NCBI GenBank assembly: GCA_001001485.1
Contig: LCKO01000001.1
Coordinates: forward strand, 76,517 to 140,516
Direction of reading: 5' to 3'
Source: Candidatus Collierbacteria bacterium GW2011_GWB2_45_17
Lineage (GTDB): Bacteria > Patescibacteriota > Microgenomatia > UBA1400 > MFAQ01
DNA length: 64,000 nucleotides
Every line of letters starts with the position of its first letter. Positions within the stretch are counted from its first letter, which is position 1. Shown here piece by piece: positions 24,001-60,000 of this stretch. Made by a program: the position numbers.

Positions 24001-27000
24001 AAGAACACCTTGCTGAAAATCTAAACGAGCTTTATACCGATCCTCGAGCCCGTTACTACTCAGATGACACCACCGGGTTTGATGAAGAATTTCACACTGT
24101 AAATCCATCTCCGGAGGACTTGGTTTTTGATAAAAACACTTATGACGTTTTTACTAATGAAAAATTACTTCAAGAACTAAAGGATAGAAAAATTCACTAT
24201 ATCATTGTCACGGGGATATTTTCAGATGGCTGTGTCCTTTCTTCTGTCATAAGCGGATTTTCCAAAGGTTTCAATTTTGTCATTCTCAAGGATCTTATCG
24301 AGACAACGGATGACGAAAAGAGACAAAGACTCCAAGAGTTGTTAGTCAGTTTTACTTTCCCAAGATTGTATGGCAAAACCATCACCTCCAGTGAGTTATT
24401 GGAAATCTTGTAAAGATTCTTTATGAACAAAGTTCTTCGACTGTTTTTTATCGCCATAGTGATATTCTCCACATATCATCTGATTCGTGATTTACTCACA
24501 AACTTTGGAATTCATAACTACATTGTAGATTTTGCACATCGTTCTCACTTATGGTGTGGAAAATTTTATCCTTGGGTTTGTCATTGGATAACAGTTCCGT
24601 CAGAAATTTTTACTTTAGTCGTGTCGTTAATAATACTAAGACGAAATAGACCAGGAACACTTGGAGTTTTAGTTTTGATTCAAGTACCACTATGGTTATT
24701 ATTAGTTTTATTGCCTTAGATCTACTGACTTCCAAATTTTCTCCAGTTTCTATCGGTTCTGGTTCGATGAATCTTTTCGAGTTTACTTTGCTCTTTTTGC
24801 CATTTTAAAAAAGATCCGCGACAACGGACATCTTTTGTATATGCGATCAGCCATTGGGTTAGTGGCCATTCACCAACTGCCCTACATTTTGTAAATTTGA
24901 AAACTACAAAGTCACGATATTTACTCATGTCGTTATTAGAGATTAGTGGTGTTAGTCTCTTAATAATTTGCAAGAAGCATAAATCGACCTCAGGAGTAGG
25001 TGTGAAATCAGTTCTTTTGAAAACGTGACTGATTTTAATTTCAAACCAAGGATAAAAGAGAATTGAAAGCATACTATTCTTTCTCTGATTAACCATGAAT
25101 TTTTCAGCCGCCTCTTTTTGGACAATCAGACTACAAGAATCCGGTGGATTATCAGAAAACAACAGCTTTTTGACAATCTCCCCGGTTATAGAAAATGGAA
25201 TATTCGAAAAGACTTTGTATGGTTCTCTTGGAAGATCAAGGGCTAAAATATCACTACAAACAAGTTCCAAAGCTATATTGTTCCCCAGACGACTAGACAG
25301 ATGGGCAAATAAACCCTTGTCAATTTCGACTGCAATCACCTTCTTGGAAACAGATAGCAAGCCTTCAGTGAGTATGCCACTGCCGGCACCAATTTCCAAA
25401 ACCGTATTTTTCCACGAAATACCAGAGGCGGCAATGAGCCGCTTTACAAGGTCGCGTCCCCTAAGAAAGTTCTGCGATAGTAGTTTCCGCCGTGTTTTGA
25501 ACATGGCAGAGGATTCTGCAAGTAATCATAATAGCCTCATTATATCAGAACCTAGTTGGTTGTCAACTGTTATAGGCTGATTAACTTGCCTGTTTTGCAG
25601 GCATACTTATAGTATCCTCACTGAAATATAATTAGCCTATGAATCGATATTTATCAATCATTCTAACATTCAACAAAAAAACCCGCCATTCGGCGGGGTC
25701 ATCTTTATTTATCTGGCACCGAGAATGTAAGACTCAAACTGCTGTGCCACTAATTCCTGGTTTTTTAATAGAGCGTAGAGCACATCCCTTATTGAAACTA
25801 TCCCCACCAGCTTTTTCTTATCAATCACCGGCACGTGCCTGATTTTCTTATCTTTCATTAAGTTCAGACAGTCCATAATGTTGGTGAAAGGAGAAACGTA
25901 GGCCGGGTCAGCCGTCATATACTCGGCCACAAACACTTTTTTTGGATCTACTCTGTCTAGCAATACTTTAAAGGCCAGGTCGCGCTCTGTAATAATCCCG
26001 ACCATCTTCCCTTCATCAAGCACCGGCAAGGCTCCAAAACCTTTATCTCGCAGAATCTTGCCTGCCTCATAGACTGTGAACCGGGGACTGACAGCGAAGA
26101 CCTTTTCCGTATCCAAATGAGATACTTTCAGAACATCTAACACTCTCGACATTAATACCTCCAATTTTGATAAGGTGCAGAACTCGGTGATTATACAACA
26201 AAGTCCCAGTCCAGGCTCGAGCCCGACCTATTCGTATCATTTTGATACGATTAAGGTATATGAATGATACGAAGAAGTGCGGTACGAAGCCATAAAACCA
26301 TTCGACACAATCCTAAATTATGCGAATAGTCAAAGTTGTTTCGCCACCCCCGTCAGCCTCAGGCAGAGTGGCAATCCAGAATCTTGTCATTCCGGTCCGC
26401 CAGTTGGCGGATGACCCGGAATCTATACAAATTTCCATCTGATATTTATGGATTGAGCCAGCCTTGGCCTAACGGCCAAAGTGCCTGCTTCGCAGGCACA
26501 AGAAACACTCTAACTTTATAGTAATCAAGAAGTGTAAAATTCACCTATGGCGATAGAAGAAATTGCAGCTGAAACAGATGTACTCAAAAAACCAGAAGTA
26601 AAAGTTGAGACAGATAGAATAGTGTCGGAAAGCCAAGAGGCTATAACAACTGCGATACTTAAATACGGCTCCTTGTTAGATGAGTCTACTTTGCTTGGCA
26701 TGATTCAAGGAGCTGCTTTTGAAAGAATTGCTCTTGATTTTATTGAGTTACACAGAATTGGTTATGACTCTCTTGACGACAAGCGTCAAAAACTAATTCT
26801 TGAAAACATTAGAGCCAAGTCAATTCGTAACCCTGACGGAATAATTGCAAGGTCTGGTATAGAAATATATGGAGTATTTGAAGTTAAGTTAGACCCAATT
26901 AGAGATACAAATTATCGAGTATCGGATCAGATAAAACACTTTGGAGAAAACATCTGGGATGCGGTTCAAGAGTTAAGACAGCAGGGCAAACTGGATGAGA

Positions 27001-57000: not shown

Positions 57001-60000
57001 AACTTGAGCTAGAAAACGAAAAACTCAAGCACACCGATGCCGAGATTTCTGACCCCAATGCTTTATGAAATCTCTCTTTGCCAGGCTTTGGAAAGTTCTC
57101 AATTTTTCAAAAAAGATACAGATAGCAATTATGCATCTGTTCCAAGACAAATTTCTGGTTGGGGTAACCGGAATTATTTTTAACGATCAGAACGAAGTTC
57201 TCCTTTTTAAACATCTCTATCGCGCACACGCTTGGAGCTTACCCGGGGGATATTTGAAGGGTGGAGAACACCCCAAGGAGGGATTAGAGAGAGAAATAAA
57301 AGAAGAGTCGGGTTTGGTTGTCAGTGCCGACTCACCTCTCAAAACCCGCACCGACAGAGATGCGGCCAGACTTGACATGTGTTACACCGGGATCTTAATT
57401 GGCGGCGAGTTCACACCTTCTCACGAAGTGTCTGAGTTTGGTTTTTTTGCCCAAGATAAATTACCTCTTTTACGTAGCAACCAAGTTTTCCTTATCGACA
57501 CCGCTCTCCAAGAGCGCCGTCCAAAATTTATCTCCCATGAACTACTCTCAAATATCGAATGAATTTTCATCCAAATTTTTCGAGTTAGTTGAAAAGGCAA
57601 ACAAGATTGTAATCACCGCCCACGAATCTCCAGATGATGACTCCATAGGATCGGTACTGTCTATTTATGAGATTCTTATCACTAAATATCCAAGGAAAAA
57701 TATAAGAATCATCTATTCCAGCGAACCGGAACCTAGATTCAGCGTCTTCAAAAACTACAGCAAAATTGAGTTCGTCCCAGATTTAGCCGATGAAATTGGG
57801 AATACAGATTTGCTAGTTGTACTCGATGGAAGTCAATTTAGTCGATTTTCGAAGCAGCCCGAAAAACTAAAGATAATTCCCAAAAATATCTGTATTGATC
57901 ACCACGCATCACCAATTAATGAATTTTCATTGAGTCTGGTATCTCCAGACTATCCCTCTTGCACAGAAATAATTTATCTTGCTTTATGTCGCGACTTTGT
58001 AGTTAGTAGAGAACTTGCCGAAATTTTTCTTTTGGGAATACTTGGAGATACGGGTAACTTTACTTATTTAAAGCCTCATCAGACCGAAACACTAGCAACA
58101 GCCAAAAAGTTACTAGAGATTAGTAAAATCGAAATTCAAGAATTCCAGTCCAGATATAGAACAATCTCCAAGCGATCATTTGCCGTTATACAAGAGTTAA
58201 TGAAGAACACTTGTTATTTCTTCCGTGATTGGTTGGCCTGATTTTCAATATACTTATATCGAGAGGAAATTTGCGGAAGATGATAAATATACGGATAGTG
58301 AAATTAGTGAGGGGAATCACCTCTACATGTCAAACTATTTAAGAATGATTGAAGGACATACTTGGGGTTTTGTAATAACACCAAAAAATAACGGTGAATG
58401 TGGTATATCTGGAAGATCGTTACCAAAGAGTGTTAGTATAAGAGATTTAATGGAAAGAATGAAAATCGGAGGGGGACATGATAGGGCGGCTGGAGGAACG
58501 TTTAAAAACGAGAAAGATGTAAAAAACTGTATCAATGAAGTCATAGAATGGACCAAAAATAATAAACCTATAATACTATAAGTTTTGCTTTGAGGCTTAT
58601 GCCTCTGCGAAATCTCGTGTACCCCAACGGGAGCTCTGCGCGGCCTGTCCCTGTACTTCTGGAGCCACACTCGGCTCCCGCCCTTATCGTCATTGCGAGT
58701 TTCGGTACTCCGAACCGTAGCTCTCCTAGATACCCTTGCGGGTAAATCTCACTCCACCCTGTCATTCAGGGCTTGACATATCGGTCAAAGTGCCTGCTTC
58801 GCAGGCACAAAAGTGGAAACTATTGACAAGTTATCCATATGGGAGTATATTCCCATCTATTGCGCCATGGCGCAATGCTATGAACAAATTAATTTTTGCG
58901 ACGGGGAACCGGGCAAAGTTATTAGACGCTTCAAAAGCTCTATCTGAATTAGGGATAGAAATTATTGGGCAAAAAATAGAAATAGAGGAGATTCAAAGTT
59001 TAGATCAGGAAGAAATTATTATGAAAAAGGCCAAAAAAGCCTTTGAGATGGTCAACTTACCTCTTTTTGTAGACGACACGGGTTTTTATCTAGATTCGTA
59101 TCCACAGTTTCCAGGAACTCTCACCAAATACGTAAATAAGACTTTGGGAATAAATGGTCTTTCAAAGCTTTTTGAGGAGGGTCAGACAGCCCATTTCAAA
59201 ACCCTTCTTTGCTTGATAACTTCTGACACAGTAGTTATTGCTGAGGGGAAACTATCAGGTAAACTCACAAAAAAGATGTCTTCCAACTTCAATCCCGATA
59301 CTCCCATAAATAGTATTTTTGTTCCCGAAGGATACAACAAACCACTAATAGATCTCATCGAGAATTCCAACATAGGTAACCTCCATCGTACAAGGGCATT
59401 CGTCGATTTGGGTACAAAAATCAAAACATTACAAATTAATTTAATAAATGACTCCATCTGAAAAAGTTCTTAAAGACAACAGAGGCTATGTTAGTCAGTA
59501 TCCAAAAAACAAAAAGGTTGTCATGATTGTCTCTGGCGGTCTTGACTCAATAGCGACATCGGCAAGGCTAATGGAAGAATTTGATCTGGAAATCTTTCCT
59601 CTACATATACACAGGGGACAAACTAACACAAATGCTGAAAATAATGCTGTCAATTTTTTTACTGATTATTTTCAAAACAGGTATGGTAAAAATAAATTCC
59701 ATACTCCTCAGATGATATCTGTCAACGTGCCTCCTGTAGAATTTAAAAAGGATTTATTACCCTACACAAAGGTAAAAGGACATCCAATGAGAGATCCCAT
59801 AATGCACCTATTGGGAGTCGAATACGCCGTTGCAGTATCTCAGGCATCAGATGAGCCAGTAAAAACAATCTATTGTGCTATTGTTCCAGAAGATTATTTT
59901 CCTCATAGCTCTTTAGATGGTTTAAGAGCCAATACGGTGAATACCTGTATCAATATGGGTGATTGGGACTGGCAAATTTCTTCACCCAACATAGATCCTT

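What the first reader, a model, noticed from the sequence alone, without database searches (positions are those of the whole stretch)
26438..58809. Conserved two-hairpin motif (hairpin-AAAGT-GCCTGCTTCGCAGGC) placed 10-70 bp upstream of three unrelated genes
Copies at 26438-26500 (before ORF 26547), 27779-27840 (before def) and 58767-58809 (before rdgB), plus a degenerate copy at 30048-30085. Hairpin 2 (GCCTGC-TTCG-GCAGGC) is invariant. Hairpin 1 differs in sequence but preserves pairing (GGCCTTCGGCC, GGCCTAACGGCC, TTGACATATCGGTCAA), a compensatory pattern suggesting the structure is selected. Candidate cis-regulatory RNA/DNA element or small mobile unit with preferred insertion near start codons.
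Basis: seen in the sequence. Interest (0 to 1): 0.55.

Follow-up and report, generated by a model that had tools for sequence, protein, structure and literature searches.

The report
Hairpin tip of CPR island arm
The two-hairpin motif is real, but it is not a gene switch: it is the tip of a 440-base hairpin-rich arm carried by small mobile gene islands that a serine recombinase stacks up beside a tRNA gene in a Collierbacteria (candidate phyla radiation) genome.

Summary
Observation confirmed. The 21-mer AAGTGCCTGCTTCGCAGGCAC occurs three times, all on the + strand (0 expected), plus one degenerate copy.

The motif is only the last ~45 nt of a 360-620 nt, multi-hairpin, non-coding element, here called LF. 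It has 64 full copies in 104 fetched loci, almost all from Collierbacteria/Microgenomates, and matches nothing in Rfam. The window holds one intact LF (27397-27839) and decayed ones.

LF belongs to small cargo islands that carry a large serine recombinase and integrate at the 3' end of tRNA-Gln or tRNA-Glu. LF is the tRNA-distal arm: its 5' end is the att junction and H1-H2 faces the first cargo gene. Window 23-37 kb is a tandem pile-up of such islands at tRNA-Gln (37096-37169). That explains why "unrelated" genes follow the motif.

The cis-regulatory reading fails on three counts:
- sigma-70-like promoters lie between the motif and the gene;
- 28% of neighbouring genes are convergent;
- loop statistics show the selected strand is the minus strand.

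On the minus strand H2 reads GCGAAGC and H1 reads c(GNNA)g. These are DNA mini-hairpin motifs known from single-stranded-DNA priming sites. The molecular role (ssDNA signal or RNA) is inferred, not shown.

The parts
27397..27839 (+). Intact long-form arm (LF), copy 2 of the finding. H0 is 27748-27788 (14-bp stem, loop TAGGAGAAATTTT). H1 is 27805-27819. H2 is 27821-27839. The selected strand appears to be the minus strand.
   Evidence: nhmmer hit over profile positions 2-434, 310 bits. Alignment with 13 and then 53 other copies. CM score 108 bits. Fold z -7.25 on + and -7.53 on -.
27285..27396 (+). Leader in front of LF copy 2: AGCCAAATCTCTACC..GGTGGGCGGGCGCGCG, a ~31-nt hairpin insertion, then GGCGAC-hairpin-CCCAGAG. 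It ends at the att-type core (G)TGTTG.
   Evidence: Same leader as the one that follows the recombinase gene at 37035-37095 and in L012, L014, L031, L058.
26336..26499 (+). Decayed LF (copy 1), internally deleted. It keeps GTTTCGCCACCCCCGTCAGCCTC, an optional GTCATTCCGG..CCGGAATC module, the 3' strand of H0, H1 (26464-26479) and H2 (26481-26499).
   Evidence: Sequence read. nhmmer positions 367-434. CM 63 bits.
58690..58808 (+). Decayed LF remnant (copy 3). It holds optional GTCATTGCGAG.. and ..ATCTCACTCCAC modules, then H1 (58773-58788, TTGAC/GTCAA) and H2 (58790-58808). A TTGACA-17-TATATT promoter-like site follows (58824-58852) before the rdgB ATG at 58880.
   Evidence: families D3, D9; 33 bits, E 5e-5. 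Low-GC DNA follows: 0.39 and 0.376.
29996..30083 (+). Degenerate 3' module (fourth copy), with H1 intact and H2 eroded, lying inside the cargo of the second island.
   Evidence: D3, 74% identity; 28 bits, E 6e-4.
23670..23790 (+). Leader plus the first ~45 nt of an LF 5' domain (CGCGCGGGCGAC..CCCAGAGTGTTGTCTGTTATAACGATATTCGAAC), then truncated. It is the remnant of an older island arm. A further weak LF fragment lies at 23070-23164.
   Evidence: (D2).
31810..32130 (+). Variant short arm 'A', the tRNA-distal end of the youngest island. It consists of the closing-stem strand AATTTTTGCGTTTTCTGTCG, a recombinase C-terminal remnant with leader (31829-31909), an att core, a variant 5' domain, and GCGCGCGAT plus a hairpin.
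   Evidence: tblastn q462-502, 83% identity; same arm type directly after a full recombinase gene in L046.
35240..35530 (-). Variant short arm 'B', inverted and ~70 nt upstream of the recombinase start. Its closing stem is AATTTTTGCGTTTTTT / AAAAAACGCAAAAATT. It is an inverted repeat of 31943-32035.
   Evidence: The same position is held by the short form SF in 10 loci and by a full LF in L030 and L035.
35602..37158 (+). Large serine recombinase gene. The open frame runs through the leader into the antisense of tRNA-Gln.
   Evidence: Pfam Resolvase + Recombinase + Zn_ribbon_recom. NCBIfam XisF/CcrB-like. Named 'Recombinase' in Collierbacteria MAGs.
36984..37095 (+). The 81-nt perfect direct repeat (36984-37064, identical to 31829-31909), which encodes the recombinase C-terminus, followed by the leader hairpin and att core GTGTTG abutting the tRNA.
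   Evidence: (D5, 100% identity).
37096..37169 (-). tRNA-Gln(CUG), the integration target of the island array.
   Evidence: ARAGORN. Rfam 65 bits. Junction comparison.

Best explanation
The motif is the cargo-facing tip (H1-H2) of LF, a ~440-nt hairpin-rich non-coding arm.

LF is carried by a family of small genomic islands of Candidatus Collierbacteria and related CPR bacteria. These islands encode a large serine recombinase (REC) and integrate at the extreme 3' end of tRNA-Gln or tRNA-Glu genes.

Island layout: [att core - LF arm ->] cargo genes [<- inverted short or long arm] [REC ->] leader - att core - tRNA (antisense).

After integration LF lies at the tRNA-distal end. Each new island inserts between the resident array and the tRNA, so arms accumulate in the same orientation. 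Window 23-37 kb is such a pile-up, and each arm is followed by the first cargo gene of its island (ORF 26547; def). Copy 3 is a decayed arm in front of another low-GC stretch (rdgB).

Shown here: the element's extent, copy number, structure conservation, link to REC and tRNA, junction sequences, and lack of transposon hallmarks.

Inferred: the arm is selected as a folded single strand of the minus strand, antisense to the downstream genes. Its hairpins carry c(GNA)g and c(GNNA)g caps there (H2 = GCGAAGC, H1 = CCGAAGG or CCGTTAGG). These are DNA mini-hairpin motifs.

The most likely role, in my estimate, is a single-strand initiation signal (ssi/sso-like priming or ssDNA-promoter site) that converts a single-stranded copy of the island to duplex, reading into the cargo. 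A minus-strand structured RNA is the main alternative. It does not regulate def, rdgB or ORF 26547 in cis.
For: Extent and family:
- Conservation runs ~440 nt upstream of H2 and stops sharply after GCAGGCAC.
- There are 168 nhmmer hits and 64 full copies of 360-618 nt.
- Rfam finds no family.

Structure:
- RNAalifold predicts 90 pairs, 23 of them with compensatory changes, including a long-range stem GCTCTCTCAA/TTGAGACAGC that encloses two hairpins.
- In the 3' module 94.2% of cells are paired against 88.0% in shuffles, and the covariation score is 0.194 against 0.090.
- Fold z is about -7.3.

Island context:
- REC is a large serine recombinase.
- REC homologues occur in ~20 loci in a fixed arrangement with LF/SF arms.
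- The same leader continues either into an antisense tRNA or into LF. For tRNA-Gln it reads ..GTGTTG|CCGGACTAGG and for tRNA-Glu ..GGTGA|CCCCGGCGGG. For LF it reads ..GTGTTG|TCTGTTATAACG or ..GGTGA|GGTGTTATAACG. Leader type, tRNA type and LF subfamily go together.
- An identical native flank joins tRNA-Gln in L088 and LF in L064, an attB versus attL relationship.
- In 12 distinct loci (14 of 15 counted) LF points at the 3' end of an opposed tRNA-Gln/Glu 0.8-9 kb away.
- An 81-nt perfect direct repeat brackets the 34%-GC island that holds REC.

Strand:
- 148 of 255 hairpin loops are G..A on the minus strand against 15 on the plus strand. Composition predicts 1.4:1.
- H2 has GNA loops in 49 of 52 copies. 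H1 has GNNA loops in 39 of 42, with 9 loop variants. A third hairpin has them in 36 of 36, with 7 variants. All are closed by C-G.
- Wobble-type departures in helices common to both strands are 34 on minus against 12 on plus.

Mini-hairpin DNA:
- GCGNAGC and GCGNNAGC are far more stable as DNA than as RNA.
- They occur at G4/St-1/alpha3 priming hairpins, at ssiA (CCGAAGG) and at N4 single-stranded promoters (PMC13037366).

Promoters:
- No promoter enrichment points into LF from the cargo side: 3 of 89 flanks, which equals chance.
Against: - No excised circle, empty site in a near-identical strain, or transcript was seen. The five near-identical contigs are 100% identical over 27975-39000.
- Only 12 of 44 distinct LF 5' flanks carry the leader, so many copies are old or rearranged.
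- Copy 3 has no tRNA or REC within the window.
- Large serine recombinases act on duplex DNA and need only ~50-bp sites. Nothing known requires a 440-nt arm, and no rolling-circle Rep or relaxase was seen among the cargo genes inspected.
- A promoter-like pair in the REC-arm spacer points in the LF-sense direction. That would give a plus-strand RNA, against the loop evidence.
- One main hairpin (CCCGAC-TGCG-GTCGGG) has a UNCG-type loop on the plus strand.
- Nearest-neighbour energies do not separate the strands.
- LF copies are related by descent, so the loop counts are not independent events.
Confidence: 0.6

Rival explanations
1. Cis-regulatory 5' leader: the two hairpins are part of the mRNA leaders of ORF 26547, def and rdgB and control their expression.
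For: All window copies are on the same strand as the next gene and 21-71 nt from its ATG. Family-wide, 72% of flanks are co-directional.
Against: - Promoter-like sites lie between H2 and the gene: 14 of 89 flanks against 3.6 expected, with the -35 box 14-39 nt after H2. In the window this includes TTGACA-17-TATATT before rdgB.
- 28% of neighbours are convergent.
- Downstream genes are unrelated cargo.
- The conserved unit is 440 nt with no promoter in the window copy.
- Loop selection is on the antisense strand.
- No Rfam cis-regulatory family matches.
Confidence: 0.03
2. An autonomous miniature mobile repeat (MITE/REP/BOX-like) of two hairpins, or of the whole LF, that transposes into sites near gene starts.
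For: - It is multi-copy, intergenic and hairpin-rich.
- Truncated copies keep the 3' end.
- The genome holds other small palindromic modules that nest inside LF loops.
Against: - There is no target-site duplication: 3.52 against 3.63 in re-paired flanks.
- There are no terminal inverted repeats.
- Short copies are in register with the LF 3' end and carry other LF fragments upstream.
- The 5' end is an att-type junction shared with tRNA genes.
- Orientation is fixed relative to tRNA-Gln/Glu.
Confidence: 0.07
3. LF is a large structured non-coding RNA made by the island. It could be a minus-strand transcript, which for the inverted arm would be the 5' leader of REC mRNA. It could instead be a plus-strand transcript from the promoter-like sites in the REC-arm spacer. 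Either would regulate recombinase expression or excision, with H1-H2 as an end-protecting hairpin pair.
For: - Covariation and a multi-branch fold.
- G..A-capped loops also fit GNRA-like RNA loops. The third hairpin has only GNRA tetraloops among its tetraloops.
- Minus-strand wobble excess.
- The arm sits ~100-190 nt from the REC start in a conserved arrangement.
- Promoter-like sites in the spacer.
- On the minus strand LF is followed by terminator-like hairpins (the leader, or A-run/hairpin/T-run).
Against: - There is no promoter enrichment upstream of the minus-strand start.
- Most H1 loops are non-GNRA (GATA, GACA), and triloops closed by C-G dominate. That fits DNA mini-hairpins better (PMC13037366).
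- Spacer promoters point to the strand that lacks the loop signal.
- No Rfam relative exists.
Confidence: 0.22
4. LF has no function of its own. It is the neutral remainder of an attachment region that has been colonised by small palindromic repeats, and it looks conserved because the islands spread recently.
For: - Optional nested modules differ between copies.
- Many copies are decayed.
- Identity between phylogenetically mixed bins is high.
Against: - Two subfamilies differ throughout yet keep the helices by compensatory changes.
- Loop end nucleotides are kept while the middle positions vary.
- Fold z is -7.
- The 3' boundary is the same in all copies.
Confidence: 0.08

Closest known systems
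Tycheposons of Prochlorococcus (Hackl et al., bioRxiv 10.1101/2020.12.28.424599)
   Same: Both are small cargo-carrying integrative elements that target a few tRNA genes. Both pile up into variable islands in a streamlined genome that lacks plasmids and prophages. Both include recombinase-less derivatives.
   Different: Tycheposons use tyrosine recombinases. Here the enzyme is a large serine recombinase, the crossover sits at the very 3' end or trailer of the tRNA, and each island carries a conserved 190-620 nt structured arm plus an inverted second arm. I do not recall such arms being reported for tycheposons; I read only that paper's abstract and introduction.
Large-serine-recombinase integrative elements (phiC31/Bxb1-type prophages, SCCmec CcrAB, Tn4451 TnpX, phiRv1 in REP13E12 repeats). 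The comparison rests on my own knowledge.
   Same: REC has the same three-domain recombinase (Resolvase, Recombinase, Zn ribbon). The att site lies next to the recombinase gene. phiRv1 likewise uses a repeated genomic element as target.
   Different: Known serine integrases need only ~40-50 bp duplex sites and rarely use tRNA genes; the Islander abstract says tRNA-gene islands are usually integrated by tyrosine integrases (PMC4383910). None is described with a 440-nt covarying hairpin arm.
Single-strand initiation signals and origins: G4-type and phiX-type ssi, RSF1010 ssiA/ssiB, ssoA/ssoU of rolling-circle plasmids, Frpo, N4 ssDNA promoters
   Same: All are strand-specific, non-coding, hairpin-rich and orientation-dependent. 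Their hairpins are capped by GCGNAGC, GCGNNAGC or CCGAAGG mini-hairpins (PMC13037366). They are placed so that synthesis proceeds into the adjacent genes.
   Different: No sequence similarity was tested or found. LF is longer and multi-branched. No ssDNA stage, Rep, relaxase or primase partner is known for these islands. The function is untested.
Mosaic intergenic repeats (BIME/REP of E. coli, BOX of pneumococcus). The comparison rests on my own knowledge.
   Same: Both are modular strings of GC-rich hairpins in intergenic DNA, with optional modules and variable copy structure.
   Different: LF has a fixed module order, a defined att-type 5' end, a long-range stem and a fixed link to a recombinase and to tRNA genes.
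Integron attC sites
   Same: Both involve selection on the fold of one DNA strand rather than on sequence, and both are placed at boundaries of exchangeable gene cargo.
   Different: attC sites are 60-130 nt single imperfect palindromes, recombined by a tyrosine integrase (IntI) that reads extrahelical bases. No IntI is present here, and LF is a multi-hairpin 440-nt unit.

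Membership tests
Integrative island with large serine recombinase at a tRNA gene | Recombinase with Resolvase catalytic domain, Recombinase domain and zinc ribbon | tested here: met
   Pfam PF00239, PF07508 and PF13408 on window 35602-37158. Homologues at 48-84% identity occur in ~20 loci.
Integrative island with large serine recombinase at a tRNA gene | Island abuts a tRNA gene, and the same junction sequence recurs at the far end (attL/attR) | tested here: met
   The leader and core GTGTTG abut tRNA-Gln at 37095/37096, and the same leader and core precede the arm at 31909-31945. 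The same holds for tRNA-Glu in L055, L098 and L035. Native flank + tRNA in L088 compares with the same flank + LF in L064.
Integrative island with large serine recombinase at a tRNA gene | Atypical composition and accessory cargo | tested here: met
   GC is 0.34-0.37 at 28-36 kb against 0.43-0.44 in the flanks. Cargo includes def, SNase, methyltransferase, signal peptidase and unknowns.
Integrative island with large serine recombinase at a tRNA gene | Excision to a circle or an empty site in a sister genome | tested here: inconclusive
   Five near-identical contigs are 100% identical across the array. Read-level data are not available.
Cis-regulatory RNA (riboswitch, leader or attenuator) | Lies within the 5' UTR, downstream of the promoter, and is linked to a consistent gene family | tested here: not met
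   Promoter-like sites lie between motif and gene. Downstream genes are unrelated and 28% are convergent. No Rfam hit.
MITE / IS-type transposable repeat | Terminal inverted repeats and target-site duplication | tested here: not met
   The LF ends are not inverted repeats. The flank word match is 3.52 against 3.63 in the control.
Group I / group II intron, tmRNA, tRNA-like gene, TnpB/IscB omega RNA | Match to the family covariance model or an ARAGORN call | tested here: not met
   Rfam gathering and E<=10 searches and ARAGORN give nothing on LF or SF. No adjacent TnpB or IscB-sized ORF was seen.
Intrinsic terminator | GC-rich hairpin followed by a U tract | tested here: not met
   No terminator-like site in window 27200-27900 on either strand. 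H2 is followed by A-rich or variable sequence on + and by only TTT on -.
Single-strand initiation signal / single-strand origin (ssi, sso) | Strand-specific fold with stable DNA-type loop caps | tested here: met
   G..A loop ends occur 148 times on minus against 15 on plus. H2 is GCGNAGC in 48 of 52 copies (a further one has GAAA). H1 is c(GNNA)g in 39 of 42. Motif properties are from PMC13037366.
Single-strand initiation signal / single-strand origin (ssi, sso) | Orientation-dependent priming of complementary-strand synthesis on ssDNA, and an ssDNA stage of the element | not testable with these tools
   This needs an M13-based ssi assay or in-vitro priming. No Rep or relaxase was noticed among the cargo genes inspected.

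The most novel reading that the evidence does not exclude
LF and its short relatives are a new class of large folded single-stranded elements that are obligatory partners of a large serine recombinase. One possibility is an ssDNA initiation or promoter signal. It would let a recombinase island establish itself from single-stranded DNA taken up by CPR cells, with the two inverted arms ensuring that either incoming strand carries one active copy. The other possibility is a structured RNA co-factor that steers or gates recombination, comparable in spirit to the bridge RNAs of IS110.
Probability: 0.15. Interest if true: 0.8.

Novelty: new variant of a known kind. Interest (0 to 1): 0.5.

Why it matters
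Mobile DNA of candidate phyla radiation bacteria is poorly known. How these tiny, plasmid-poor genomes exchange genes is an open question.

This finding points to a widespread family of small cargo islands in groundwater Collierbacteria/Microgenomates, with over 100 arm copies in the loci fetched. The islands use a large serine recombinase at tRNA-Gln/Glu. That is a CPR counterpart of the tycheposon way of building variable islands.

The islands carry an undescribed, strongly structured 440-nt arm. Its hairpin caps are the DNA mini-hairpin motifs otherwise seen at single-stranded-DNA priming sites. If the arm works as single-stranded DNA, it would tie island spread to ssDNA uptake or replication in CPR bacteria.

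In practical terms, the arm and its short form are easy markers for island boundaries in CPR MAGs. They are also probable causes of contig breaks and mis-binning.

Tried and rejected
- **Rfam.** I searched the window at gathering threshold, 22 loci, and the LF region at E<=10. The only hits were RNase P, tRNAs and chance miRNA/snoRNA matches.
- **Group I/II intron, tmRNA, permuted tmRNA, intron-bearing tRNA.** I considered these because of the TTCGAA T-loop-like core and a 2026 paper on tRNA introns in Patescibacteria (PMC13011429). I rejected them: no model match, no acceptor or D-arm pairing, and multiple copies per genome.
- **TnpB/IscB omega RNA or IS605 end.** No adjacent large ORF and no Rfam match.
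- **Extended -10 promoter reading of the invariant TGTTATAAC.** I dropped this in favour of an att half-site, because the same position is occupied by the tRNA 3' end.
- **Phage, plasmid and viral-contig searches.** No match.
- **Literature search by sequence strings.** Only unrelated primer hits.
- **Strand assignment by G-U versus A-C counts and by RNAalifold or nearest-neighbour energies.** The signal was weak or ambiguous. Loop-end statistics were decisive instead.
- **Empty-site search through near-identical strains.** All were identical.
- **TSD/TIR test.** Negative.
- **The exact recombination history of the short form.** It looks like a circularly permuted recombinase 3' end inserted in a long hairpin. 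I could not resolve it, nor the inverted junction in L095.

Full report
**1. Observation.**
The 21-mer AAGTGCCTGCTTCGCAGGCAC occurs exactly three times, always on the + strand, with none expected by chance. A covariance model of the 3' module finds the same four places on the + strand and no others. The scores are 108, 63, 33 and 28 bits. Each motif folds as two hairpins far better than shuffles.

Some details need correction. H2 is an 8-bp stem with a 3-nt loop. Copies 1 and 2 have the same H1 stem, so the "compensatory pattern" inside the window rests on copy 3 alone.

**2. The motif is the end of a much larger element.**
An exact-match scan of one genome per species gave 22 loci. These were mostly Collierbacteria and other CPR MAGs, plus some labelled Pseudomonadales. 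Aligning their flanks showed that conservation extends ~440 nt upstream and stops abruptly after GCAGGCAC.

A metagenome scan added 82 loci. A profile of the whole element, which I call LF, finds 168 hits, of which 64 are full length at 360-618 nt. In the window only 27397-27839 is intact. Copies 1 and 3 are internally deleted remnants that still carry other LF pieces upstream.

LF is a fixed series of GC-rich hairpins with optional nested modules. It has a long-range stem that encloses two hairpins. It folds with z about -7.3 on either strand. Rfam has no match at any threshold. The organism is Candidatus Collierbacteria, because the Lon and recombinase proteins are identical to those of GW2011_GWB2_45_17.

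**3. Structure is under selection.**
Over 52 distinct 3' modules, 94.2% of cells pair, against 88.0% after shuffling and 30-42% for slid partners. Ten pairs show double changes. H0 exists in two fully compensated versions. One H1 pair shows all four Watson-Crick types. H2 shows U-A to G-C in two copies.

**4. Context: serine-recombinase islands at tRNA genes.**
Window 35602-37158 encodes a large serine recombinase, REC. Its 3' end runs through a conserved "leader" hairpin into the antisense of tRNA-Gln.

An 81-nt perfect direct repeat (31829-31909 and 36984-37064) encodes the REC C-terminus. It brackets a 34%-GC segment.

REC homologues occur in ~20 loci in one recurrent layout. The layout has five parts in order:
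- a REC 3' remnant and leader;
- an arm pointing right (LF or a shorter variant);
- cargo;
- an inverted arm (a ~330-nt short form SF, a variant, or a full LF) 100-190 nt upstream of REC;
- REC, whose leader abuts either a tRNA (tRNA-Gln or tRNA-Glu, antisense) or the arm of the next island.

The junctions are informative. For tRNA-Gln..CCCAGAGTGTTG is followed either by CCGGACTAGGACTCGAACC (the tRNA) or by TCTGTTATAACGAAATTCGAAC (LF subfamily 2). For tRNA-Glu..TTTGAGGTGA is followed either by CCCCGGCGGGACTCGAACC (the tRNA) or by GGTGTTATAACGAAGTTCGGAC (LF subfamily 1). So the invariant 5' end of LF is an att-type half-site next to a 5-6-nt core shared with the tRNA end.

In L088 a native flank (a displaced tRNA fragment, a ~130-nt module and a terminator) joins intact tRNA-Gln. 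In L064 the same flank joins the LF 5' end. That is the relation of attB to attL.

In 14 of 15 loci that hold both features (12 distinct), LF points toward the 3' end of an opposed tRNA-Gln/Glu 0.8-9 kb away. LF has no target-site duplication and no terminal inverted repeats.

**5. Reading the window.**
From ~23.07 to 37.1 kb the window holds, all in + orientation:
- LF fragments at 23070-23164 and 23670-23790;
- decayed LF at 26336-26499, followed by ORF 26547;
- a leader and intact LF at 27285-27839, followed by def, two membrane proteins, a methyltransferase and an SNase;
- a degenerate tip at 29996-30083;
- the REC remnant and variant arm A at 31810-32130;
- cargo;
- the inverted arm B at 35240-35530;
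- REC;
- the leader;
- tRNA-Gln.

GC is below the flanks throughout this stretch. This is a tandem accretion of islands at one tRNA, and L064 and L046 show the same pattern. The "unrelated genes" after the motif are the first cargo genes of successive islands. Copy 3 precedes another low-GC stretch (56-64 kb), but its tRNA and REC, if any, lie outside the window.

**6. Why it is not a leader.**
Of 82 distinct downstream flanks, 59 genes are co-directional and 23 are convergent. Promoter-like sites are enriched on the + strand just after H2. With at least 10 of 12 matches there are 14 of 89 flanks against 3.6 in shuffles. With at least 11 of 12 there are 7 against 0.26. The -35 box lies 14-39 nt after H2. 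So the motif lies upstream of the cargo promoters. Before rdgB the site is TTGACA-17-TATATT.

**7. Which strand, and DNA or RNA?**
Wobble counts and energies are nearly symmetric. Loop ends are not.

Among 255 hairpins with stems of at least 5 bp and loops of 3-4 nt in 54 copies, 148 read G..A on the minus strand against 15 on the plus strand. Composition predicts 1.4:1.

By site:
- H2 has GAA 40, GGA 7, GTA 1 and GAAA 1;
- H1 has nine different GNNA loops in 39 of 42 copies;
- a third hairpin has seven G..A loops in 36 of 36.

All are closed by C-G. Middle positions drift while G and A stay fixed, so the minus strand is the selected single strand. That strand is antisense to def, rdgB and ORF 26547.

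GCGNAGC, GCGNNAGC and CCGAAGG are the "mini-hairpin DNA" motifs. They are much more stable as DNA than as RNA. They are found at the primase hairpins of ssDNA phages G4, St-1 and alpha3, at ssiA of RSF1010, and at N4 single-stranded promoters (PMC13037366; the closing-pair dependence is in the abstract of PMC3201870). The window's H2 reads GCGAAGC on the minus strand, and its H1 reads CCGAAGG (copy 2) or CCGTTAGG (copy 1).

No promoter enrichment points into LF from the cargo side. I therefore lean toward a single-stranded-DNA function, namely a priming or initiation signal whose product would extend into the cargo. A minus-strand RNA is the main alternative.

Against the ssDNA idea:
- serine recombinases act on duplex DNA;
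- no Rep or relaxase was seen;
- promoter-like sites in the REC-arm spacer point the other way;
- one hairpin has a UNCG-type loop on the plus strand.

This step is inference.

**8. Comparison and novelty.**
The islands work like tycheposons (10.1101/2020.12.28.424599) but use a large serine recombinase. The Islander abstract (PMC4383910, seen) says that islands in tRNA and tmRNA genes are usually integrated by tyrosine integrases. Literature searches found no description of these islands or of LF. I rate it a new variant of a known kind. The island type is familiar. The structured arms, their inverted duplication around the cargo, and their DNA-type hairpin caps are not.

**9. Verdict.**
I put about 0.8 on the island-arm identity and about 0.3 on the ssDNA mechanism.

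Noticed in passing
window 4012-4316 (-): Bacterial RNase P RNA class A, only 305 nt and just above Rfam's threshold (105.5 against 100 bits). It looks like a reduced CPR-type RNase P RNA.
   Followed up: no
window 1094-1135, 1631-1654, 8745-8768, 15414-15466, 27681-27722, 58690-58760: Small GC-rich palindromic modules (GTCATTGCGAGG..GACG.. and ..GGCAATCTCACTCCAC) are dispersed through the window. They also nest inside LF loops. They seem to be a separate family of mini-repeats (families D6 and D9).
   Followed up: partly
window 24422-24719 and 28847-29144: A 298-nt direct repeat at 84% identity covers small membrane-protein ORFs in two successive islands. These are paralogous cargo genes (D1).
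   Followed up: no
window 31943-32035 (+) and 35300-35395 (-): A ~93-nt inverted repeat is formed by the two variant arms that flank the cargo of the youngest island. The cargo segment could in principle be inverted.
   Followed up: partly
window 20138-20596: Three tandem 159-nt coding repeats, each with a CPxC..-type motif (EKCPKCSS). This is a repeated zinc-ribbon-like domain (D4/D8).
   Followed up: no
window 12028-12420: Three copies of a 34-nt hairpin repeat, GTAGGGGTTTCATTTATGAAACCC (D10).
   Followed up: no
L006 ~3560-3700, L088 3700-3840, L064 ~12740-12900, L038 ~1250-1376: A ~130-nt conserved module with a terminator lies between a displaced tRNA-Gln 3' fragment (cut in the T-loop) and the intact tRNA-Gln or LF. 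It may be a second, tiny element that integrates inside the T-loop.
   Followed up: partly
L095 7580-7760: A short-form arm in reversed orientation is fused to the tail of the leader next to tRNA-Gln. This is an apparent inversion junction between two att-like sites.
   Followed up: no
L005, L007, L012 (4422-4517), L014 (4037-4132): A ~100-130-nt module (TATAATCAAGCATCATAACGAAGTTATGAGCG..GACGAGCAAGCTCT) is inserted at different positions inside LF. One site is the H0 loop. It looks like another nested small element.
   Followed up: no
L007, L009, L011-L014, L018, L019 (record titles): MAGs titled 'uncultured Pseudomonadales' carry Collierbacteria-type islands. L012 is orthologous to the window's def locus. 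These are probably taxonomic mislabels or mis-binning. Many contigs end inside the leader or LF, so these repeats break assemblies.
   Followed up: partly
L033, L039, L055, L064, L059, L054 (spacer between REC start and short-form arm): A conserved ~100-nt spacer holds a palindrome (GTAC-N5-GTAC or TACA-N3-TGTA) and CATTTAACCATAWATT. This may be an operator or promoter region of the recombinase.
   Followed up: no
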